Below are positions 1,549-36,930 of a stretch of DNA of 36,930 nucleotides, piece after piece; position 1 is the stretch's first letter, and the number at the start of each line of letters is the position of its first letter. This stretch comes from Gemmatimonadales bacterium (GTDB taxonomy: Bacteria; Gemmatimonadota; Gemmatimonadetes; Gemmatimonadales; GWC2-71-9), in the NCBI GenBank assembly GCA_039794085.1, contig JBDIWC010000041.1:1-36930 (forward strand). Reading direction: 5' to 3'. The notes under the pieces were generated by a model that saw only the letters and a list, made by a program, of their open reading frames with translations, made no database searches and was not told the origin of the DNA. The translations under genes were made by a program, and so were the position numbers.

Positions 1549-2192
1549 TCATCACGGTGTCGCGCGAATTCGGAGCCGGGGGGGCCCAGGTGGCGGCGGA
1601 AGTGGCCCGGGCTCTGGGCTGGACCCTGGTGGACGATCAGTATGTGGACGAGGTGGCGCGCCGGGCGGGGATGAGCCGGGAGGAGGTGGCCCAGCAGGAG
1701 GAGCGGGCGCCGGGGTTCCTGGAGCGCCTGGCGCGCACTCTGGCCAATGCCACGAGCGAATATGTGACGCCCGATGGGAGCGTCATGCCGGAAATGGAGG
1801 AGGCGCGGCTGGTGAAGATCACCGAGACGGTGGTGGCCGAGTACGCCGCCCAGGGGCGCGTGGTGATGGTGGGACGGGCATCTCCCGCGGTGCTGGAACA
1901 GGTGGAGGACGCGATCCACGTGCGAATCGTGGCCCCCTGGGCGCACCGCGTGGCCGCGGTGGTAGCGCGGCAGGGGGTATCGGAGGACGACGCGGAGAAA
2001 ATGATCCGCGACCGCGACGGAGCCCGGGCTCGCTATCACAAGATGTACTACGACCGCGAATGGGCCGACCCGGTGAACTATCACATGGTGCTCAACTCCG
2101 CCGTGCTCGGCGTGGAGGGGGCCGCGGAGGTGGTGGTGGGGAGGGCGAGGAGGATGTGGCAGGGAGTAGGGAATGTAGGGAATAGGGAGTAG
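1545..2192 (+). CDS. Cytidylate kinase-like family protein (Cytidylate_kin2)
   Basis: IITVSREFGAGGAQVA P-loop variant, VVMVGRAS, RDRDGARARYHKMYYDREWADPVNYHMVLNS. ATGA overlap with the MFS gene. Confidence 0.9.
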   Translation: MIITVSREFGAGGAQVAAEVARALGWTLVDDQYVDEVARRAGMSREEVAQQEERAPGFLERLARTLANATSEYVTPDGSVMPEMEEARLVKITETVVAEYAAQGRVVMVGRASPAVLEQVEDAIHVRIVAPWAHRVAAVVARQGVSEDDAEKMIRDRDGARARYHKMYYDREWADPVNYHMVLNSAVLGVEGAAEVVVGRARRMWQGVGNVGNRE

Positions 2193-2197
2193 GGAGT
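2160..2197 (+). repeat. Heptamer tandem array (GGGAGTA type) overlapping the cmk-like stop codon
   Basis: agggagt agggaatgt agggaat agggagt agggagt ag. Confidence 0.8.
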
Positions 2198-2440
2198 AGT
2201 CCCTTACGGACAAGATTGAACACAAAACGGCGACAATCTTTTGGGCGACGTCTGGAAACCCGCGTCGGCGGCCCGTGGGCCGCCGCGGGTTGGCAGGGAA
2301 GGCAGCGTACGGGCCGTTCGCGAACGGCCCGTACACGTGTCGGCAGATCGGCCCAGGGGCCGTTCACGAACGGGGATAGTCCCAGCGGAACAGTGACACA
2401 GGTTCGTGAATCTCTTTGGTTCCGGCTCTGCCGGCTTAGG
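2198..2440 (+). mobile_element. Non-autonomous element copy 1 (L end, REP-palindrome interior, R end)
   Basis: L = AGTCCCTTACGGACAAGATTGAACACAAAACGGCGACAATCTTTTGGGC at 2198; R at 2412-2440; interior perfect palindrome at 2307-2334. Confidence 0.7.
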
Positions 2441-2443
2441 AGT

Positions 2444-2768
2444 AGTCCCTTACGGACAGGATTGAACGCAAAACGGCAACAATATTTCGGGCGACGCCCG
2501 GGAACCAGCGCCGGTACTGCGTTTGACGGCGGTTCGGAATATATCCAACTTGTGTGCCTTCGGGTCGCGGAGCGAGCCGTGACCAGGCGATTGGTTTTTC
2601 CCGGGGCTGACGCCCCTTGCTCGGCCAGGGGAGGTGGCTCACGCCACCGGCAGCCCAGACGAACACCCGGCCGTGTGAACGGCCTCGCGCCGCCGAGCCC
2701 GGGGCGAAAGCCCCGGGAAAACCACGCGACCCCGAGGCCCCTCTTTGGTTCCGGCTCTGCCGGCTTAT
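2444..2768 (+). mobile_element. Non-autonomous element copy 2, in tandem with copy 1, with a different interior
   Basis: L variant AGTCCCTTACGGACAGGATTGAACGCAAAACGGCAACAATATTTCGGGC at 2444; R at 2741-2768; interior hairpins such as CCCGGGGC-GAAA-GCCCCGGG at 2698-2717. Confidence 0.7.
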
Positions 2769-3008
2769 GGGAGTCCGGCACTGTCTGAATCCAAGTTGTC
2801 CCCCGCTCCCTCCCGCACCCAAAAGCCGCCGCAGTCCACTTCCGCGACGGTCCTCCTCCGACGCCGGGCAGCGTCCGGGGACTGCTCGACCGAGTGCATT
2901 GCCAATACCCCCCCCCCGCCCCGGCCCCGCGCGATGGAACCGGGTCGCCGGGAGCATTCTCCATCCTGTCTCCTGTATTCCTGCCGCGAGCTACCGGGGG
3001 GGCGGGCG

Positions 3009-3858
3009 GTGAGATACCGGGATCTCCACACCCCACGATCGGAGACGGTTGCGCGCCTGACCGGGGACCCCACCTTCACTGGCATTCCCGTCAATCTCGT
3101 GGCGTGGACCTCAGCGGAGTGGCGCACGCCGCTGGCTCGGAGTCTACCCGATGGATGGCGGCTGATTCCGGCGGAAACGGTGTTCGCAGCGGTGCGTGCC
3201 CTCCGGGAATCGGTCGCGGCAACCGTGCTCGTCGTTGACGACCTTCGCGGCGTGAAAGCGATGGAGGCAAGCATTCCACGCCGTTTTCCGTTGTTTCAGA
3301 TCGGGCTACTCCCCGACCGTTCTGGTCGAAACCCCGTGCACCAGGCGAACCTTGCGGCCGCCCTGGGGGCGCTTCTTCTCCCCAATCCCCGGGCAGAGGG
3401 GGCCGCGTCCTTCCGGGAGGCCGGAATATCGGCGCGACTGATGAGTCCGGCGGGGGCTCGTGCTGGGCCGATTGGCGGACCGCCTCGTCAATATTTCCCC
3501 GCTGGCCCGACGTTACCTGGTCCTGTGCTTGACAGTGAACTCCGGCGTGACCCGGCCGTGCCAACTGAGCAGGAGCCTCGGCGTTTCCCTGCGCACGCTG
3601 GAGCGGGAGATGCAGGAAGAGCAGGTGCCAAGTCCCCTTCGGATGGCCGTGCTGGCGCGTCTTCTCCGGGTTGCGTGGCTGATGCAGAGCGAGGATCATT
3701 GCCTTGCTACGGTGGCCACCGCGTTGGGCTTCTCCTACCCCTCCGTGGTCAGTCGCCTCCTTCGACGTGCGGGGTTCACCGCGGAATCAATTCGTGGGCC
3801 ACTTGGGCTGGAGGGGGTTGTCGCTGTGCTCATGGGGAACCTGGCCATGGATAAGTGA
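3009..3858 (+). pseudogene. AraC-type HTH transcriptional regulator with receiver-like N-terminal part, split by a +1 frameshift near 3452-3456
   Basis: The C-terminal frame (3460-3858) has the AraC double HTH: LSRSLGVSLRTLEREMQEEQVPSP...LARLLRVAWLM...LATVATALGFSYPSVVSRLLRR. The upstream frame (GTG 3009) reads as a globular domain (AVRALRESVAATVLVVDD). Removing one G from GGGGG joins them (MSPAG-LVLGRL). Start uncertain. Confidence 0.7.
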
Positions 3859-4032
3859 GGGATCTGCGGCCGGCGGGACTGCTTGCATATCGGGGACGGG
3901 ACATGTTGACGCCCTTTGTCGGTTATTGGCGGGTTCGGTCCTGTTCCATCCAAGGAAAGTGACCGAGATTGGCTGGTGTCGTAGGAGCGTGTCTTACTCG
4001 ATCCGAAGCCATACCCACCAGGAGGATGATTG

Positions 4033-4245
4033 ATGAAACGCATGATGTGGATCGCCGCGATGCTGGTCCTGTCTCTCGTTTCCCTCGCCATGCGTCCTGC
4101 CAAGGAGATCGCCACCCTGCAAAGTCCCCCGTTCGAATGTGGCGCGAGCTGTTCCAGGGATATGCAGTGTACGATCCAGTGCTCGACATGTGGGGACGAC
4201 CCCTTTGATCTTGAACCCGGTAACGTCTGCTTTTGGGACCCCTAG
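4033..4245 (+). CDS. Small secreted cysteine-rich (knottin-like) peptide, 70 aa
   Basis: AGGAGG RBS at 4020-4025, Sec-type signal MKRMMWIAAMLVLSLVSLA, six Cys spaced CX3CX5CX3CX2CX12C, immediately upstream of a DsbA gene. Confidence 0.85.
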   Translation: MKRMMWIAAMLVLSLVSLAMRPAKEIATLQSPPFECGASCSRDMQCTIQCSTCGDDPFDLEPGNVCFWDP

Positions 4246-4260
4246 AGGGGATTGGGCGCC

Positions 4261-4953
4261 ATGAGGTTTCTGTTGCGGCGTATGAAGACGGCACGAAACT
4301 GGATCCTGAATCGGGACATGGTCTTCAACCTCGTGGCTGTTTTGGCGACCGTGGCAGCAGTCGGGGTCATCACCTCCGGTCGGTACTCGGCTGGGGGTGA
4401 CGACCAACAGCCCGAGACGAAGCAGCCCGAGATGGTGTTCGTCTCCGACTGGACCGAACTCGGGAGCGCTGGTTTCCGGACCGGGCCCGACAGCGCCGCG
4501 GTAACGATTGTGGTATTCATCGATCTCACCTGTGGAGCTTGTAGGGTGGTGGATTCTTTGCTCGTGGCAATTCAGGAATCACACCCGGGGCGCTTGGCAA
4601 CGGTGGCTCGGCACTTCCCCTTGAACCAAAGAGGGTATCAGGCTGCCCTTGCGGCGGAGTGCGATCCGCGAGATGGCAATGAACCGTTGCGATCTCTCAT
4701 CTTCCGGAGCCAGGACTCGCTTGGCACGTTGAATTGGAATGAGATTGCGACACGGGCCGGAGTTCGGGACATCACGTCGTTCGAGGCATGCATGAGCAAC
4801 CCCGATACACACGCCACATTATGGCGCGATATTCATGCTGGGGATGTGCTGTACGTTCGAAGCACGCCCACTATGGTGATCAACGACAGCATGATTGTCC
4901 GGGGAATACCATCCTTGAGCTGGTTGTCATCGCACATCCGTGACTTGCTCTGA
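4261..4953 (+). CDS. DsbA/BdbD-like thioredoxin-fold disulfide oxidoreductase with N-terminal membrane anchor
   Basis: GPDSAAVTIVVFIDLTCGAC (CXXC), RHFPL, AALAAEC and FEACM second Cys pair, cis-Pro loop VRSTPT, N-terminal hydrophobic helix. Confidence 0.9.
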   Translation: MRFLLRRMKTARNWILNRDMVFNLVAVLATVAAVGVITSGRYSAGGDDQQPETKQPEMVFVSDWTELGSAGFRTGPDSAAVTIVVFIDLTCGACRVVDSLLVAIQESHPGRLATVARHFPLNQRGYQAALAAECDPRDGNEPLRSLIFRSQDSLGTLNWNEIATRAGVRDITSFEACMSNPDTHATLWRDIHAGDVLYVRSTPTMVINDSMIVRGIPSLSWLSSHIRDLL

Positions 4954-5049
4954 CCCTCAAGACCATACAGAATTGTGACCAGTGCCCTGAGAGGGGTCCA
5001 GAGTGGTGAACTGTGCTCAGTAGGGGATGTGCCCCGAAAGGACGCTGTG

Positions 5050-5081
5050 TCAGGGGATTATTGATGATCCCCTGAGTTTCT
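5050..5081 (+). terminator. Stem-loop between dsbA and beta-propeller gene (possible terminator/attenuator)
   Basis: TCAGGGGATTAT-TG-ATGATCCCCTGA followed by GTTTCT. Confidence 0.45.
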
Positions 5082-5096
5082 ACCTGGAGGCAGGGG

Positions 5097-6299
5097 ATGT
5101 CTTTGAATCTTAAGCAGATAGGCGTTTTCGTGATGACGATGACGGGTTCTGCCATCGCGGTAGTTGGTGATGCGGAAGCGCGCCAGGTTCCCGTCGTCAG
5201 GAGTTACGGGGAACGGGACGCTCCGAGGGAGCGGTGGAGGGTGCAGGCCCGGCCCCGGACGGTGATCGGTAGCGAGGACGCAGTGGGCCCCGCGCTGTTC
5301 CAGTTGATTCACACGATTCAACCAATCGGAGATGGCGTTTTCGCTGTTGCGGATCTGGAGGCCGCCGAAATCCGGATATTCGACCGGGAGGGACGGCACC
5401 TGCGCACCATGGGGAGGCATGGCCGCGGACCGGGGGAGTTCGGAGCGATCTACGGTCTCTGGCGGATCGGCGACTCCCTCGCCGCCATGGACGAAGTGGG
5501 TGTGCTTCAGATCTTCACCTTGGAGGGCCGGCATGTGCGGGCCGTACAGCGTCCCACCGCCCTCGGCCTCCGGGTTGTCCGGAGCGGATTCCTGCGGAAC
5601 GGGAGCGCGATCGGGTACGTGGCGGACCCGCCGGATAGTGTGCCGATAGGGAGGCATGAAACGTTCGTCACCTTTCTCCGAATCGATCCGGACGGCACTC
5701 AGCGCCAGTTGGGGCGTTACCATGGGAGGCAGGTGATCCGCGAGGGGAGCGCGCCACGGTTCAAGGCGGTTATCTACGGGCCCCGTCTGGTCACGGCGGT
5801 TCTCTCGGACCGGGTGTGTCTCGGCTTCCCGTCAGAGGGATACCAATTCCGGTGTCTGGATGCCGAGGGGAGAACCATCGTGACCGTGTCGAGGAGGACG
5901 GCGACCGAGCGGGTTACGGAGGCCCACCGCCAGGGGTACTTTCACCTTATGGACAGCGCGAATTCCCTGCCGAGGAGCGCCGAGTACCGGAGACGCCTCC
6001 GCCTCACCACGGTGTTCGCGGACCGGTTCCCCCCCTATGGCCGTTTTGTGGGTTCCACCGCGGATGAACTCTGGGTGGGCCCGATGGACCCGGGTGACTG
6101 GGGAACGTTTCCCAACCCGGTCCCGCCGGAACCCACCGTCTGGTCGGTCTACTCGAAGGAGGGGGAATGGCTCTCCGACGTGACACTTCCGGCCTGGTTC
6201 CGGCTCCTCGCGGTGGATCAGGAGAGTGTGATCGGCCTGCTGCGGCACCCCGATGATGGAATCGAAAAGATCGCGGTCTATCCCCTGGTGCGCCGGTAG
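5097..6299 (+). CDS. Secreted 6-bladed beta-propeller (NHL/TolB-like) protein
   Basis: EIRIFDREGRHLRTMGRHGRGPGEF motif, C-terminal WSVYSKEGEWLSDVTLP blade, signal-peptide-like N-terminus ending AEA, GGAGG RBS upstream. Confidence 0.8.
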   Translation: MSLNLKQIGVFVMTMTGSAIAVVGDAEARQVPVVRSYGERDAPRERWRVQARPRTVIGSEDAVGPALFQLIHTIQPIGDGVFAVADLEAAEIRIFDREGRHLRTMGRHGRGPGEFGAIYGLWRIGDSLAAMDEVGVLQIFTLEGRHVRAVQRPTALGLRVVRSGFLRNGSAIGYVADPPDSVPIGRHETFVTFLRIDPDGTQRQLGRYHGRQVIREGSAPRFKAVIYGPRLVTAVLSDRVCLGFPSEGYQFRCLDAEGRTIVTVSRRTATERVTEAHRQGYFHLMDSANSLPRSAEYRRRLRLTTVFADRFPPYGRFVGSTADELWVGPMDPGDWGTFPNPVPPEPTVWSVYSKEGEWLSDVTLPAWFRLLAVDQESVIGLLRHPDDGIEKIAVYPLVRR

Positions 6300-6318
6300 C
6301 GCTCCCGTCCGCCCCGTC

Positions 6319-7065
6319 GTGAACGCCCTGGAGGGTTGGCTCACGGCCGCCCTCGTGGGAGCGCTGGCGGGTTCGCTGTTTCCGGTGCCCTCCCGCGCTC
6401 AGGAGGCATCGCCGTCCACGGTCGTGATCGTGGTCACCGATTCCCTCGACGGGCCGCTCGACCTTGCCTCCGCACTGTTGAGTCGGGCCGGCCGCCAGGG
6501 GGTGAGTGGCCGCGATGGCCGGATCGTCCTGCGCAACATTCCGCCAGGGCGCGACACCCTCACCATCCGGCGGATCGGGTACAGTCCTCTGATCGTGTCC
6601 CTCGATCTCTCCCCGGGGGACACCCTCCGGCTCGATGCCGTACTCGACCCGCTGGCCCTGGCGCTCAACGATATTCAGGTCACCGCCCGGCGCGGGCTCC
6701 GCACCTTCGACCGCCGGATGCGGAACGCGATCTTTTCCCCGCCCAATTCGTTTCTGACCCCGGAGTGGCTCGACACCTTCCCGCCCCGGATGCCGGTGAG
6801 CGAGATCCTCCAGAAGGCGGGGATTGTCTATCGCCGGTTTGGAATCCAGCGGCGCCTGGCCTGCCCTCCGGGCCGGACCGGTCGCACCGCCCCCGTCGTG
6901 ATCCTGCTCAACGGGGGCTACTACCCGGACCGTGAAGGGAGCTTTCTCGAATACATGGCCCGGATGGAAGTGAAGGCCATCGAGGTCTATCGGTCGAAGC
7001 TCGAAATGCCGTTGGATCTCCCCGTGGCCGCGGGCTCGTGCGCCGTGGTGGTGTGGACGAGGTAG
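6319..7065 (+). CDS. Carboxypeptidase-regulatory-like domain plus TonB-dependent receptor plug-like domain, no beta-barrel
   Basis: Signal ending SRA-QE, SGRDGRIVLRNIPPGRDTLTIRRIGYSP, LNDIQVTAR, C-terminal VKAIEVYRS...GSCAVVVWTR. Start could be 6253/6256. Confidence 0.75.
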   Translation: MNALEGWLTAALVGALAGSLFPVPSRAQEASPSTVVIVVTDSLDGPLDLASALLSRAGRQGVSGRDGRIVLRNIPPGRDTLTIRRIGYSPLIVSLDLSPGDTLRLDAVLDPLALALNDIQVTARRGLRTFDRRMRNAIFSPPNSFLTPEWLDTFPPRMPVSEILQKAGIVYRRFGIQRRLACPPGRTGRTAPVVILLNGGYYPDREGSFLEYMARMEVKAIEVYRSKLEMPLDLPVAAGSCAVVVWTR

Positions 7066-7206
7066 GGAGTGGCCACGATCGTGATCAACGTGGACGATTT
7101 TTCTGGACTGGACGACCAGATGCATGTGACCCTTCCCAACCCAGGGCAGGTGGTGCATGATATGACAAGTGTTACGATAGAGGGCCCCCTTCGAGCAGGG
7201 CATGGC

Positions 7207-8421
7207 ATGTTCCCCTCACCCGCACTCCAGCTCCTTGTGTCATTGGCGATCGCGTCCCTGGTGATGGCATGCACAGGCACCACGAGCGGCAATCGTGAAC
7301 GTTTCCGGGTCGATACGACGGAGAGTGGGCGCGTCGACGTCACGAACACGGGGGTTTCCCTCTGGGAGGAAGGCTCAGGTTGGCACCTCGAGGAGGATCT
7401 CCGGCTCGGCAAGGCGGCGGAGACCGGACCTGAATTGTTCGGTCAGATCGGAGCGCTCCTGTCGGATTCGAAGGGGCGGATCTATGTCCTCGACATCATG
7501 TCCCAGGAAATACGCGTTTTCGATTCCGATGGGTCCTGGTCCCACACGATCGGTCGGAAAGGCGCGGGGCCGGGTGAATTCAGGGGTGCCACCGGCATGG
7601 CGCTCGGTCAGGGTGACACGCTCTGGGTGGTGGATCCCACGATGGACCGCTATTCGGCGTTTACCGCCGAGGGGAGGCTGGTCGGAACGTATCCACGACG
7701 CATCCAGGGATATCTCGATTCATGGCACGGGGCCTTTCTCTCCGACGGACGCTACATGGATTGGGGCCTCTTGTTCCCGGAAGAAGGAGCGGGGGTCGCA
7801 GGCCCGCGGATTCTTCTTCAGCCCGTTACGCTCTCCGAGGGATTCCAGGTCAGGGACTCCTTCCCGCCCCTCGAATTCACCCAGGAAATGGCGGTCATCG
7901 CGGGCCAGCCCCGTCCGATGCCTTTCTACAACGATGGACTCGTTTTCAACGTTGATGCCGCTGGCAATATCTGGTTCGCCCGCTCCCGCGAGTACCGGAT
8001 CTACCGCCGGAACCTCGCCGGCGACACGACCCTCTCCTTCACCCTCCCCGCGCAAGCCGTCAGCCTGACCGATGCCGATCGGGCGTACGTGCGCCGACGG
8101 CTGTCGGGACGGCCGGGGCTGCTCGACGATTATCTGAGCGCGCTGCCGAAAGCCAAGCCGATCCTCCATGCCATCCTGGTAGACGGCGTGGGCCACCTGT
8201 TCGTCATTGTCAACGTGGAAGGGGAGGATGAGGGCTCGATTCTGGATGTGTTTCGCGATACCGGCGAATACCTCGGACGCCTCCACCTTCCTCGACCTGT
8301 GACCCTGGTTCCAGCAAATAGGTTGGTGGCTCATGTCACGAAGGACCACCTGTTGCTGGTGGTCACGGACGAAACGGAGGTCCCCTACGTCTCCCGACTC
8401 CGCCTGGTGAAGCCCCGGTAA
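7207..8421 (+). CDS. 6-bladed beta-propeller lipoprotein
   Basis: Lipobox-like LVMA-C after a hydrophobic stretch from ATG 7207, GRIYVLD, EIRVFDSDGSWSHTIGRKGAGPGEF, LDVFRDTGEYLGRLHLP. ORF is open from 7069. Confidence 0.8.
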   Translation: MFPSPALQLLVSLAIASLVMACTGTTSGNRERFRVDTTESGRVDVTNTGVSLWEEGSGWHLEEDLRLGKAAETGPELFGQIGALLSDSKGRIYVLDIMSQEIRVFDSDGSWSHTIGRKGAGPGEFRGATGMALGQGDTLWVVDPTMDRYSAFTAEGRLVGTYPRRIQGYLDSWHGAFLSDGRYMDWGLLFPEEGAGVAGPRILLQPVTLSEGFQVRDSFPPLEFTQEMAVIAGQPRPMPFYNDGLVFNVDAAGNIWFARSREYRIYRRNLAGDTTLSFTLPAQAVSLTDADRAYVRRRLSGRPGLLDDYLSALPKAKPILHAILVDGVGHLFVIVNVEGEDEGSILDVFRDTGEYLGRLHLPRPVTLVPANRLVAHVTKDHLLLVVTDETEVPYVSRLRLVKPR

Positions 8422-8451
8422 GGCCCGCAATCTACCGTCCCCTCCCGACCC

Positions 8452-8530
8452 CCCACTCCCTACTCCCCACTTCCTACTCCCTACTCCCCACTTCCTACTC
8501 CCCACTCCCTACTCCCTACTCCCTACTCCC
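8452..8530 (-). repeat. Heptamer tandem array (GGGAGTA on the minus strand, about 11 units) at a convergent gene junction
   Basis: ctactcc/ccactcc/ccacttc units; the ATPase stop codon lies inside the array. Confidence 0.85.
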
Positions 8531-9973
8531 TGGAGGGTGGCGCGGTGGGCGGCCGGCATACCCCAACTCCTCGTTCCGGGTGATTCGCCGGTGGGCCACC
8601 AGGGCCTCCAGCACCAGTTCGCAGGCGGCGACCGCTACGTTGGGCTCTTTGGCGCTCGCGAGACCCACCGTCGTCACCAGCGACAGCAACCCGGGAACCG
8701 TCCCGAAGATGTCGAGACACGCCGACGCCCGCTCCTCGCCGGTGAAGCGCAGGGCTCGGCCCTCGTCGAACCATTCCACGATCGGGTCGGTGTCGGCCCC
8801 TCCGGCCCGGGCGTCGAAGGTGGCGCCAGCCGCGTCCCGGATCAGCTCCCGCGCGATCGTCTCGCTCCCCTGCAGCTCCCCCTCGTACTCCAACTCGATC
8901 TTGCCGGTGACCGACGGGAGGGCGGCGTAGACGTCGCTCATGCGGGGCACGATCGCCTCCTCGCCAAGCCGCCGGGCGCGCCGCTCGGCGTTGGAGACGG
9001 CGTTCTCCAGCACCGTGATCGGGAGCCGCTGGGACACGCCGCTCCGCCGGTCCACCCGCTTGTCCTCCCGGGCCTCGAACGCGATCCGCTCGATGACCTC
9101 GGCGATGAAATCGGGGATCACCACCGGCAGATCCTCTCCCCGGTCGATCCACGCCTCCTGGGCCGTGATCGCCATGCCAAGCTCTACGGTGCGGGGATAG
9201 TGGGTCTGAACCTCGGAGCCGATCCGGTCCTTGAGCGGGGTGATGATCTTGCCGCGCGCGGTGTAGTCCTCCGGATTGGCGGTGAACACCAGGAGGACGT
9301 CGAGCGGGAGACGGACCGGGTATCCCTTGATCTGGATATCCCCCTCCTGCATCACGTTGAAAAGCCCGACCTGCACCTTCCCGCTCAGGTCCGGGAGCTC
9401 GTTGATGGCGAAGATGCCCCGGTTGGCCCGCGGCAGGAGCCCGAAGTGCATGGTCAGTTCGTCGCTCAGCAGATGCCCGCCGCGCGCGGCGCGGATCGGG
9501 TCCACATCGCCGATGAGATCGGCCACCGTCACGTCGGGGGTGGCGAGCTTCTCCACGAACCGCTGGTCGCGGTTCACCCACGCGATCGGGGTTTCCTCTC
9601 CCCGCTCGGCCAGGAGTTCCCGTGCGAATCGAGACACCGGGGCGAAGGGATCGTCGTTCACTTCGCTCCCGGCCACCACCGGAATGGCCGGATCGAGGAG
9701 AGCGGTGAGCGCCCGGAGGATCCGGGACTTGGCCTGTCCCCGGAGACCGAGGAGAATGAAATGGTGACGGGCCAGGAGGGCGTTCACGATCTGAGGGAGT
9801 ACCGAGTCGTCGTATCCGACGATGCCGGGAAAGAGCTCCTCGCCCCGTCCCAGGCGATCCTGCAGGTTGTGCCGGATCTCGTCCCGGACCGACCTTCCCC
9901 GCAGAGGCGGCTGCCCCCAGGGAGAGCGGATCAGGGCACCAAGTGTCTCAGGAAGTGCATTGGGTCTGGGCAT
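8516..9973 (-). CDS. AAA+ ATPase, magnesium chelatase subunit I (ChlI/MoxR)-related
   Basis: Walker A variant [28 protein letters not shown], Walker B region [33 protein letters not shown]. Confidence 0.85.
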
Positions 9974-10213: not shown

Positions 10214-10248
10214 ACTCTCTCCTCTCTCCTCTCTCCTCTCCCTCCTCC
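10214..10248 (+). repeat. Heptamer tandem array (TCTCTCC)
   Basis: ctctctc ctctctc ctctctc ctctccc tcctcc, directly upstream of a -35 box. Confidence 0.7.
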
Positions 10249-10276
10249 TTGACAGCACTGCTCGGAATGGTAACTT
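10249..10276 (+). promoter_or_regulatory. Sigma70-type promoter for the small lipoprotein gene
   Basis: TTGACA (10249-10254), 16-bp spacer, extended -10 TGnTAACTT (10271-10276). Confidence 0.6.
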
Positions 10277-10363: not shown

Positions 10364-10549
10364 ATGTCGAAAATCGTGACACTCGTTGCCGTTCTTGCTC
10401 TGACTGCCTGTGGCGGGGGTGCCGCCAACGAGGCTCCGCCCGCCGCTGCGGAGCCGGCCGCCGTTGCGCCCGCACCGGTCGATTCGGCTCCGGCCGATTC
10501 GATGGCGATGTCGCACGACAGCATGGCGGGGGACACCACGTCGCACTGA
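10364..10549 (+). CDS. Small Ala/Pro-rich lipoprotein, 61 aa
   Basis: MSK, hydrophobic core, lipobox LTA-C; GAGGG RBS; own promoter and terminator. Confidence 0.85.
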   Translation: MSKIVTLVAVLALTACGGGAANEAPPAAAEPAAVAPAPVDSAPADSMAMSHDSMAGDTTSH

Positions 10550-17048: not shown

Positions 17049-17362
17049 CCTAAGCCGGCACAGCCGGAACCAAACAGGCGCCTCGGGGTCGCGCATGGGT
17101 TTTCTTCGGCATGGGTTCCGGTCCTGCCCGAGTACCTCTCCCCACCCCCAGAGCCAACCACAAGAAGCACAAAAGGCACAGAAACCTCTTCGCCCCTGGT
17201 GGCCCCCATGCGCCCCGTGGTGTGCCTCTTGTGACTTCTGTGCTTTTTGTGGCCATTCCCCTTGCACGGCGCGGCCGAGGCGATCGACGTGTCTGACGGG
17301 GGGGGCGGGAGATGCCCAAAAGATTGTCGCCGTTTTGTGTTCAATCTTGTCCGTAAGGGACT
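17049..17362 (-). mobile_element. Non-autonomous element copy 4, in tandem with copy 3
   Basis: CCTAAGCCGGCACAGCCGGAACCAAA at 17049; GCCCAAAAGATTGTCGCCGTTTTGTGTTCAATCTTGTCCGTAAGGGACT at 17314-17362 is the exact reverse complement of the copy 1 L end. Confidence 0.8.
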
Positions 17363-17390
17363 ATGTCCTATGTCCTATGTCCTATGTCCT
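17361..17390 (-). repeat. Heptamer tandem array (ACATAGG on the minus strand); also at 16721-16734 and 17036-17050
   Basis: ctatgtc repeated four times. Confidence 0.8.
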
Positions 17391-19032: not shown

Positions 19033-19074
19033 GGGACCAAGATACTCGGGAGGTGGTGGGGGGAGGGAGGGAGG

Positions 19075-19176
19075 AGGACATAGGACATAGGACATAGGAC
19101 CTAGGACCTAGGACGGTAGGACAGAGGACAGTAGGACAGTAGGACAGAGGACAGAGGACAGAGGACAGAGGACAGT
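19075..19176 (+). repeat. Heptamer tandem array drifting from AGGACAT through AGGACCT to AGGACAG
   Basis: About 14 consecutive aggac-based units, read directly. Confidence 0.85.
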
Positions 19177-20321: not shown

Positions 20322-20449
20322 CCCGACTCCCGACTCCCGACTCCCATTCCCTTTCGATTGCCTACCGCCTACCGCCTATCGCCTACCGCCTATCGCCTAC
20401 CGCCTATCGCCTACCGCCTACCGCATATCGCCTACCGCCTATCGCCTAC
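20322..20449 (+). repeat. Heptamer arrays CCGACTC x3 and GCCTAYC x about 12
   Basis: Read directly; the dacB stop codon lies inside the array. Confidence 0.85.
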
Positions 20450-36775: not shown

Positions 36776-36803
36776 GAAGTTCGAAGTTTGAAGTTTGAAG
36801 TTT
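36776..36803 (+). repeat. Heptamer tandem array GAAGTTT x4
   Basis: gaagttc gaagttt gaagttt gaagttt directly after the acpS stop. Confidence 0.8.
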
Positions 36804-36930
36804 GGGTTCTTCTCCAATTTAGGTGCAGGATCGGCCCGGGAACGCCTGCTTGACCCTGGGGGCGAAGTAGTCCGGATGGTGGAATCCGTCCGCTTTGCGC
36901 GTGATCGCCTGGATGCGGGTGTTCACTCTT

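What the first reader, a model, noticed from the sequence alone, without database searches (positions are those of the whole stretch)
3009..8421. Candidate disulfide-rich peptide system: regulator, secreted 6-Cys peptide, dedicated DsbA, two beta-propellers and a plug-only protein
Seen: six co-oriented genes sit between housekeeping loci, bounded by repeat elements and arrays, and the 4.0-5.1 kb part is visibly less GC-rich than the flanks. The peptide gene has a strong RBS and Sec-type signal and ends 15 bp before a membrane-anchored CXXC oxidoreductase. All three downstream products appear exported. Known: DsbA/BdbD-type enzymes form disulfides in exported substrates, and dedicated ones mature some bacteriocins (BdbB for sublancin). 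Inference: the peptide is Sec-exported and folded by its own oxidase, and the propellers and plug protein act as receptor, immunity, display or partner proteins under AraC control. No classical RiPP enzyme (LanM, YcaO, radical SAM) or peptidase-ABC exporter is present, so standard cluster miners would probably miss it. I know of no characterized system with this architecture.
Basis: partly seen in the sequence, partly recalled or inferred. Interest (0 to 1): 0.88.

Follow-up and report, generated by a model that had tools for sequence, protein, structure and literature searches.

The report
Disulfide mini-protein and propeller cassette
This bacterium carries an inserted gene cassette for a tiny six-cysteine protein, a disulfide-forming enzyme that likely folds it, and propeller-shaped and receptor-plug-like proteins that it is predicted to bind; the genome holds over twenty such cassettes with different mini-proteins, likely a family of variable ligand-receptor pairs whose job is untested.

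Summary
Real, conserved and undescribed in the papers searched, but not a unique six-gene system. The core is peptide (4033-4245, 6 Cys), DsbA-like enzyme, PF17170 propeller and barrel-less TonB plug protein, inserted between two genes that are neighbours in relatives. All six Cys are invariant in 12 homologues; 4 of 4 new hits found with the peptide profile alone sit directly before a DsbA. The genome has 22 peptide-bearing propeller/plug loci; only 4 include a DsbA, so the propeller or plug protein is the constant partner. Of 84 peptides, 81 have even Cys counts and 76 are acidic. Corrections: the AraC gene is frameshifted here and is not conserved with the cassette; the second propeller is an add-on; the flanking repeats are genome-wide. 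Best reading (0.42): DsbA-folded hypervariable ligands bound by cognate propellers in the cell envelope. The scan already noted this cassette type in other Gemmatimonadota genomes.

The parts
2186..2770 (.). Genome-wide intergenic repeat elements at the left edge of the insertion; not specific to the cassette
   Evidence: up to about 100 blastn copies in the genome; very high summed depth
3009..3858 (+). AraC-like regulator gene, frameshifted at the G run 3452-3456 (N-terminal part and HTH_18 part in different frames); likely pseudogene, accessory
   Evidence: HTH_18 E 1.6e-8 on 3460-3855 only; intact paralogue on C108 aligns to two frames
4020..4025 (+). Shine-Dalgarno AGGAGG of the peptide gene
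4033..4245 (+). Precursor of a 6-Cys mini-protein (70 aa; signal-like N-terminus; Cys spacing 3-5-3-2-12; mature part about 43 aa, net charge -6)
   Evidence: no Pfam/NCBIfam/PDB family
4261..4953 (+). Membrane-anchored DsbA-like thiol-disulfide oxidoreductase (PF13462; CGAC, Thr-Pro loop, second Cys pair), cassette-type clade
5097..6299 (+). NHL-like six-bladed beta-propeller (PF17170-related), conserved Cys241/Cys253 pair, no conserved His; likely cognate partner of the peptide
6319..7065 (+). CarboxypepD_reg plus TonB-plug-like protein without barrel (start uncertain, 6253-6319; two Cys)
7207..8421 (+). Second PF17170 propeller, lipobox-like Cys22 (start uncertain; open frame from 7069); accessory, not part of the conserved core
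   Evidence: soil contig stops matching at 7068; absent from sister-species remnant
8442..8531 (.). 7-mer tandem array at the right edge; a type found throughout the window and genome

Best explanation
This is an inserted, gain-and-loss cassette whose small six-cysteine protein is likely exported by Sec, likely folded into three disulfides by the adjacent membrane-anchored DsbA-like enzyme, and predicted to act as a variable ligand bound by the propeller encoded with it, one pair among more than twenty in the genome. Shown: gene content, insertion site, invariant cysteines, purifying selection on most peptides, linkage to a distinct DsbA clade and to propeller/plug genes, a DsbA-propeller fusion among close homologues. 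Inferred: export to the periplasm; disulfide formation (even Cys counts, dedicated oxidoreductase, re-oxidation by the genome's single VKOR or a MauE homologue); cognate binding (propeller diverges with the peptide while DsbA does not). Speculative: the pairs serve as a recognition code (signal or identity), with the barrel-less plug protein as co-receptor or decoy. The AraC gene and second propeller are passengers in this copy.
For: 24 of 33 detector hits in the genome have a propeller, plug or DsbA gene starting within 2 kb downstream, against 2.4% for random positions. 29 of 58 held-out DsbA hits have a same-strand peptide, 3 an opposite-strand one. DsbA tree: a branch with SH-aLRT 98 holds 41 rows with no peptide or propeller; 66 of the other 69 have one or both. 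81 of 84 peptides have even Cys counts. The 3 propellers closest to this one among 54 others all sit beside peptides of the same Cys framework. In a tandem duplication DsbA is 96% identical, peptide core 44%, propeller 82% with patchy differences and dN/dS 0.50; where the peptide is unchanged the propeller is 93% with dN/dS 0.20, and DsbA is 0.18-0.21 in both. DsbA-propeller fusion P0025, eighth of 150 listed homologues. No His conserved at 60% in 113 propellers; best PDB matches are NHL-repeat domains.
Against: No binding, expression or phenotype evidence. The co-divergence rests on two pairs; over all pairs, peptide and propeller identity do not correlate (Spearman -0.01, 1478 pairs), and 3 of the 6 other same-framework loci have propellers at background identity (23-28%). 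Linked genes share history, so shared subfamilies do not prove interaction. Several loci put two or three unlike peptides before one propeller, which fits a promiscuous partner. 36 of 56 propeller loci have no detected peptide. No conserved signal-output gene: regulators nearby vary (AraC, ECF sigma, response regulator) or are missing.
Confidence: 0.42

Rival explanations
1. Bacteriocin-like antagonism: the disulfide peptide is a narrow-spectrum, receptor-mediated inhibitor of related bacteria; the propeller (and the plug-only protein as a decoy for TonB-receptor uptake) protects the producer, and peptide-less propellers are orphan immunity genes.
For: Patchy, low-GC, gain-and-loss cassettes; small gene first, larger partner behind; 36 of 56 propeller loci without detected peptide; dedicated thiol-disulfide oxidoreductases occur beside bacteriocins (enterocin F4-9 passage in PMC6606811; sublancin BdbB recalled, listing only).
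Against: 76 of 84 peptides are acidic, unlike membrane-lytic bacteriocins (comparison recalled); no exporter, peptidase or barrel gene in the cassette or among 37 flanking ORFs scanned; peptide cores mostly under purifying selection (dN/dS 0.26-0.56 in 6 of 7 computable pairs, 1.2 in one); a 2012 survey found no beta-propellers among immunity proteins (PMC3482391 passage).
Confidence: 0.24
2. Obligate two-chain protein: the mini-protein is a small disulfide-rich subunit that caps the propeller, as the MauD-folded small subunit does in methylamine dehydrogenase, giving the complex a variable binding or catalytic site in the periplasm.
For: Same parts list as the mau cluster (small Cys-rich chain, thioredoxin-like MauD; six disulfides per 10.64898/2026.03.05.709764; propeller large subunit recalled); one MauE homologue lies directly before a propeller in this genome; DsbA-propeller fusion.
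Against: No conserved Trp or other cofactor residue in the peptides; no match to MADH or QHNDH subunit families; unrelated Cys frameworks across loci; plug-only loci replace the propeller directly behind some peptides.
Confidence: 0.15
3. The peptides are periplasmic or secreted inhibitors of foreign proteins (enzymes of competitors, predators or phage), and the propeller and plug proteins are a separate class of envelope binders that merely share the oxidative folding service and mobile islands.
For: Acidic, rigid, variable-loop scaffolds; propeller and plug proteins have their own Cys pairs that DsbA could oxidise; unlike peptides share one propeller.
Against: Tight one-to-one adjacency of peptide and partner and the paired divergence in the duplication; no PADLOC match.
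Confidence: 0.12
4. Metal handling: acidic Cys-rich peptides bind metal ions and the DsbA/ScsC-like enzyme keeps their thiols in the right state.
For: ScsC/copper-resistance proteins are among the nearest solved structures of the DsbA clade; acidic cores.
Against: Even Cys counts in 81 of 84 and dozens of unrelated frameworks are not what a single metal site needs; no MNIO or other modifying enzyme nearby; no NERD/NGRD-type motif conserved in the propeller consensus.
Confidence: 0.05

Closest known systems
Bacteriocin loci with their own thiol-disulfide oxidoreductase (sublancin BdbA/BdbB, enterocin F4-9); EntV folded by core-genome DsbA
   Same: Small exported Cys peptide whose disulfides depend on a DsbA/BdbD-type enzyme; BdbD is among the PDB matches of this DsbA clade. 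F4-9 and EntV from passages of PMC6606811; sublancin details recalled.
   Different: No glycosyltransferase, peptidase-ABC exporter or double-glycine leader; Sec-type signal; acidic cores; propeller and plug-only partners; over 20 paralogous cassettes per genome; diderm host.
Bacteroidota NVEALA small proteins (PF14055) beside DUF5128/TolB-like six-bladed propellers
   Same: Small signal-bearing Cys protein next to a PF17170 propeller (neighbourhood recalled and named in earlier scan notes, not tested here).
   Different: No PF14055 match in 12 plus 22 peptides scanned; no NVEALA motif; that neighbourhood is itself uncharacterised (0 papers hold the term).
Methylamine dehydrogenase mau cluster (MauA small subunit, MauD, MauE, propeller MauB)
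   Same: Small disulfide-rich chain matured by a co-encoded thioredoxin-fold protein; propeller partner (recalled).
   Different: No tryptophan cofactor residues, no MauG, three rather than six disulfides, hypervariable sequences, no family match.
NHLRC2/SOQ1 (thioredoxin-like domain fused to six-bladed NHL propeller)
   Same: Thioredoxin fold joined to an NHL propeller, as in fusion P0025.
   Different: NHLRC2 has a TlpA/DipZ-type domain with CCINC and no conserved gene neighbours in 7 bacteria examined (PMC6107167 passages); here a DsbA-type CXXC enzyme and a conserved peptide neighbour.
TonB-dependent receptors of SusC type (N-terminal extension plus plug)
   Same: Whole-length alignment to residues 25-228 of 9GBC; weaker to SusC and colicin I receptor plugs.
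   Different: No barrel in the protein and none among the flanking ORFs scanned; an added conserved Cys.

Membership tests
Glycocin / sublancin-type bacteriocin cluster | Co-encoded thiol-disulfide oxidoreductase | tested here: met
   PF13462 gene 15 bp behind the peptide
Glycocin / sublancin-type bacteriocin cluster | Glycosyltransferase and peptidase-containing ABC exporter in the cluster (features recalled) | tested here: not met
   None among the six products; insertion bounded by housekeeping genes
Glycocin / sublancin-type bacteriocin cluster | Antibacterial activity | not testable with these tools
   needs bench assay
Enzyme-modified RiPP (LanM, YcaO, radical SAM, MNIO) | Modifying enzyme beside the precursor | tested here: not met
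   None in the cassette nor among 37 flanking ORFs of paralogous loci (37 of 50 candidate ORFs were scanned)
NVEALA (PF14055) small proteins | PF14055 match | tested here: not met
   0 of 12 and 0 of 22; the genome-level search rang nowhere, controls included, and is uninformative
NVEALA (PF14055) small proteins | Adjacent DUF5128-type propeller | tested here: met
Methylamine/amine dehydrogenase (mau, qhp) clusters | Conserved cofactor-forming Trp residues and subunit family match | tested here: not met
   Only Met1 and six Cys invariant; no Pfam/NCBIfam match; QhpR hit of the HTH is 21 bits against a cut-off of 250
DsbA-like thiol-disulfide oxidoreductase (Thioredoxin_4) | PF13462 above cut-off, CXXC and cis-Pro loop residues | tested here: met
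   65.3 bits vs 23.2; C91/C94 invariant, T202-P203 nearly invariant in 18
DsbA-like thiol-disulfide oxidoreductase (Thioredoxin_4) | Oxidase or isomerase activity on the peptide | not testable with these tools
   needs bench assay
TonB-dependent receptor | N-terminal extension and plug domain | tested here: met
   profile to 9GBC E 1.7e-12; PF07715 in 6 of 15 family members at E up to 0.1, not in this member alone
TonB-dependent receptor | 22-stranded barrel | tested here: not met
   protein ends at 248 aa
Knottin / cystine knot | Three disulfides with knotted connectivity | not testable with these tools
   Six Cys with a spacing that resembles squash-type inhibitors (recalled); no Pfam or PDB support; structure prediction unavailable
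Polymorphic toxin system | Large trafficking N-terminus with variable C-terminal toxin domain and known immunity family | tested here: not met
   70-aa precursor, no toxin or immunity family match
Functional AraC-family activator | Continuous reading frame joining sensor and HTH domains | tested here: not met

The most novel reading that the evidence does not exclude
Gemmatimonadota run a venom-like repertoire of dozens of disulfide-stapled mini-proteins per genome, each folded by a cassette DsbA and read by its own propeller or by a barrel-less TonB plug: a new peptide ligand-receptor code for cell recognition or conflict in a diderm phylum, invisible to RiPP miners.
Probability: 0.35. Interest if true: 0.9.

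Novelty: new variant of a known kind. Interest (0 to 1): 0.7.

Why it matters
What is shown already marks a large, unannotated source of natural disulfide-rich mini-protein scaffolds (84 distinct peptides from the small sample read here, none of those scanned in Pfam or NCBIfam) with matched folding enzymes, in an abundant but barely cultured soil and sediment phylum. It also gives a testable role to two families of unknown function that are hugely expanded in these genomes: DUF5128 propellers and plug-only TonB receptor fragments. If cognate binding holds, it is a new kind of bacterial peptide recognition system; the cassette DsbAs could also be tools for folding Cys-rich peptides.

Tried and rejected
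No RNA holder listed for the region. The search for related loci gave nothing useful (0 loci; 1 distant locus). AraC homologue search among longer proteins found none at E 1e-10 (weak evidence). Promoter/terminator scan: 1 and 2 sites against 0.8 and 3.4 expected. Three spacers fold no better than shuffles (z -0.84, -0.19, +1.17), so the hairpin before the first propeller is not claimed. Atlas look-alikes of the peptide scored 0.76-0.78, leads only. PADLOC: 0 of 6. Positive selection on peptides: not supported in general. A DNA recombination motif at peptide 3' ends was rejected: the C-terminal Leu-Glu-Pro uses varied codons and stops. Horizontal transfer of the identical peptide shared by G000 and G001 was rejected as unnecessary: dS 0.09-0.19 matches the 90-94% identity of housekeeping flanks. 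Phase variation of the regulator: a five-G run is short (recalled norm) and no alternative allele was seen. The window's DsbA is unplaced in the tree, so its grouping with DsbAs of same-framework peptides is not shown. PMC6764417 was not held. PQQ/lanthanide enzyme reading: motifs named in 10.64898/2026.07.10.737718 are absent from the consensus.
Full report
Observation. The window is contig C41 of a 4.16 Mb, 66.8% GC genome. The 4.0-5.1 kb stretch has 57.7% GC, as low as 0.6% of 7385 genome windows. A profile of 15 plug-family proteins aligns over positions 8-218 of 223 to residues 25-228 of the TonB-linked receptor 9GBC, so 'plug-only' holds, although this member alone does not reach PF07715 (6 of 15 do at E up to 0.1). 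Export of the three downstream proteins is inferred only: my crude signal detector scored none of them.

Corrections. The regulator is broken. HTH_18 lies on 3460-3855 only; the intact paralogue on contig C108 aligns to the 3009 frame (E 4.6e-4) and then to the next frame (E 4e-24), and the switch falls at five G, 3452-3456. Contigs of runs X1-X3 span the place with no difference, but these are one sample and may be the source of the assembly. A profile of the two paralogues matched 2 of 301 genomes, this one included; of the nine same-family peptide loci with DNA in hand, AraC was found only at the two in this genome (two of the others are cut close to a contig end); one has a divergent ECF sigma and one a response regulator nearby. 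The flanking repeats are genome-wide.

Boundaries. The cytidylate-kinase-like gene and the AAA gene that flank the cassette are 26, 65 and 616 bases apart in three of five relatives searched (the other two lack one of the matches). In the same-genus genome G001 the gap keeps 111 bases, 95% identical, of the 3' end of the plug gene, followed by 7-mer arrays and the AAA gene: the cassette was there and has been deleted, and no second propeller follows. A soil-metagenome contig from another study matches 4033-7068 (243 other letters, 24 gaps) and then goes on unlike the window. The conserved core is therefore peptide, DsbA, propeller 1, plug; propeller 2 is an add-on.

The peptide is a real, variable gene family. 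In the soil contig 27 listed substitutions fall in the peptide; 15 codons change residue, 5 do not, and no Cys changes (several small gaps lie there too). Another allele is 67% identical, while the closest propeller homologues are 84-91% (not known to be from the same contigs). A peptide profile matched 8 of 401 phylum genomes; five of nine matches were training sequences, and all four new ones lie directly before a DsbA, three then followed by a propeller, the fourth with a divergent one upstream. All six Cys are invariant in 12 homologues. No Pfam, NCBIfam or PDB family explains them.

The genome holds a repertoire. It has 32 PF17170 matches and 7 PF13462 matches. Five DsbAs are paralogues of this one and four have a 6-Cys peptide beside them; the two others (one next to the only VKOR) have none. 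A crude detector (signal-like start, at least 4 Cys, RBS, 40-110 aa) gave 33 ORFs, 24 with a propeller, plug or DsbA starting within 2 kb downstream, against 2.4% of random positions. Of 78 propeller/plug loci, 22 have a peptide and 4 of those a DsbA; 20 of 56 propeller loci have one. So the peptide-propeller or peptide-plug pair is the constant, and DsbA an optional module. Among 37 of 50 candidate flanking ORFs scanned there is no barrel, exporter, peptidase or RiPP enzyme; there are an ECF sigma fragment, a transposase and a PemK-type gene.

Across the phylum. A profile of 18 cassette DsbAs matched 41 of 151 genomes at E 1e-42. In 55 regions from genomes not used for the profile, 54 gave 58 DsbA rows: 29 have a same-strand peptide within 3.5 kb (at least one looks spurious), 3 an opposite-strand one, 36 a propeller or plug gene. 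In a quick IQ-TREE of 110 DsbAs (the careful search did not finish), a branch with SH-aLRT 98 holds 41 rows without peptide or propeller; 66 of the other 69 have one or both, 54 a flagged peptide. Kin are not independent and the rows were collected with cassette-derived queries, so I give no p-value. Of 84 distinct peptides, 81 have even Cys counts and 76 acidic cores; a few detector artefacts are included.

Mechanism. Even Cys counts, a signal-like leader and a membrane-anchored CXXC enzyme of the ScsC/BdbD class point to oxidative folding after Sec export (inferred). The cassette has no re-oxidant; the genome has one VKOR and three MauE-like matches, one above cut-off, and MauE can replace DsbB (10.64898/2026.03.05.709764, abstract, introduction and first results read). 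Propeller 1 and the plug protein carry their own Cys pairs, so the enzyme may serve them too. A DsbA-propeller fusion ranks eighth among 150 listed homologues. The propeller looks like a binder: no His is conserved at 60% in 113 sequences and the best PDB matches are NHL repeats. Cognate pairing is suggested by the three nearest propellers all lying beside same-framework peptides and by one tandem duplication where peptide core (44%) and propeller (82%, dN/dS 0.50) diverged but DsbA (96%) did not, against 93% and 0.20 where the peptide is unchanged. Against it: no overall correlation, three of six other same-framework loci with unrelated propellers, and unlike peptides sharing one propeller. 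I put variable ligand with cognate receptor at 0.42, antagonism with immunity at 0.24, obligate small subunit at 0.15, independent inhibitors at 0.12, metal handling at 0.05. Acidic charge, no exporter, mostly purifying selection and the absence of propellers among immunity proteins in a 2012 survey (PMC3482391, passages) weigh against a bacteriocin but do not exclude it.

Literature and novelty. Ten searches (listings and abstract starts seen) returned no description of this cassette. Passages read in PMC11651109, PMC12426817, PMC12419801 and 10.64898/2026.07.10.737718 do not cover it; PMC6606811 and PMC6107167 give the nearest principles. Most subscription papers and all supplements were not seen and could hold a mention. 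The sublancin, NVEALA-neighbourhood, MADH propeller and squash-inhibitor comparisons are recalled. Every membership test on a characterised system failed on a defining feature, while the principle of an exported disulfide peptide with its own oxidoreductase is known; hence 'new variant of a known kind', with a 0.35 chance that it proves a categorically new recognition system. Earlier notes of this scan describe the same cassette type in other Gemmatimonadota genomes (unchecked AI notes, not counted as support); none covered this genome under my words.

Noticed in passing
G000 contigs C22, C27, C30, C53, C71, C79, C93, C103, C104, C109: 11 of 26 cassette peptides in this genome end in Glu-Pro (mostly Leu-Glu-Pro) despite unrelated Cys frameworks, with varied codons; 0 of 58 from other genomes in that count, though two in same-genus G001 do (one is identical to a G000 peptide, one lay outside the count). 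A possible lineage-specific C-terminal docking or sorting tag.
   Followed up: partly
L172:10045-10155 (G001:C47): 111-base remnant of the plug gene at the same chromosomal site in the sister species: a deletion scar of this cassette.
   Followed up: yes
L032:4977-5870 (G001:C65): The DsbA of the closest-framework cassette in G001 is split in two open frames by a stop; cassette decay seems common.
   Followed up: no
L126 (G149:C1:2284200-2298900): Tandem duplicated cassette with 10-Cys peptides: DsbA 96% identical, peptide core dN/dS 1.2, propeller differences in patches; best natural pair for a specificity swap test.
   Followed up: partly
G000:C13:14525-16188: MauE-like gene directly upstream of a propeller gene, no peptide detected there.
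   Followed up: partly
G000:C3:11524-16985 (L054): DsbA paralogue flanked by three propellers and an unassigned exported ORF but no detected peptide: the one exception among five.
   Followed up: partly
L058, L061, L063, L064: Multi-domain CarboxypepD_reg proteins of 500-840 aa without a barrel match sit in arrays beside peptide-plug loci.
   Followed up: no
P0025: 614-aa DsbA-propeller fusion, close to this propeller subfamily.
   Followed up: partly
window 2161-2199, 8442-8531, 10215-10249, 17361-17390, 19074-19175, 20360-20449, 36776-36804: Many intergenic 7-mer tandem arrays with different units; plus a dispersed repeat family (window 2186-2770) with up to about 100 copies in the genome and many more in the metagenomes.
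   Followed up: partly
window 10364-10549 (+): 61-aa Ala/Pro-rich ORF with a lipoprotein-like start, read by eye.
   Followed up: no
L036:1075-4857: A cassette-clade DsbA in G033 is followed by a 1260-codon open frame with a weak plug-profile match, possibly a full TonB receptor, with no convincing peptide.
   Followed up: no
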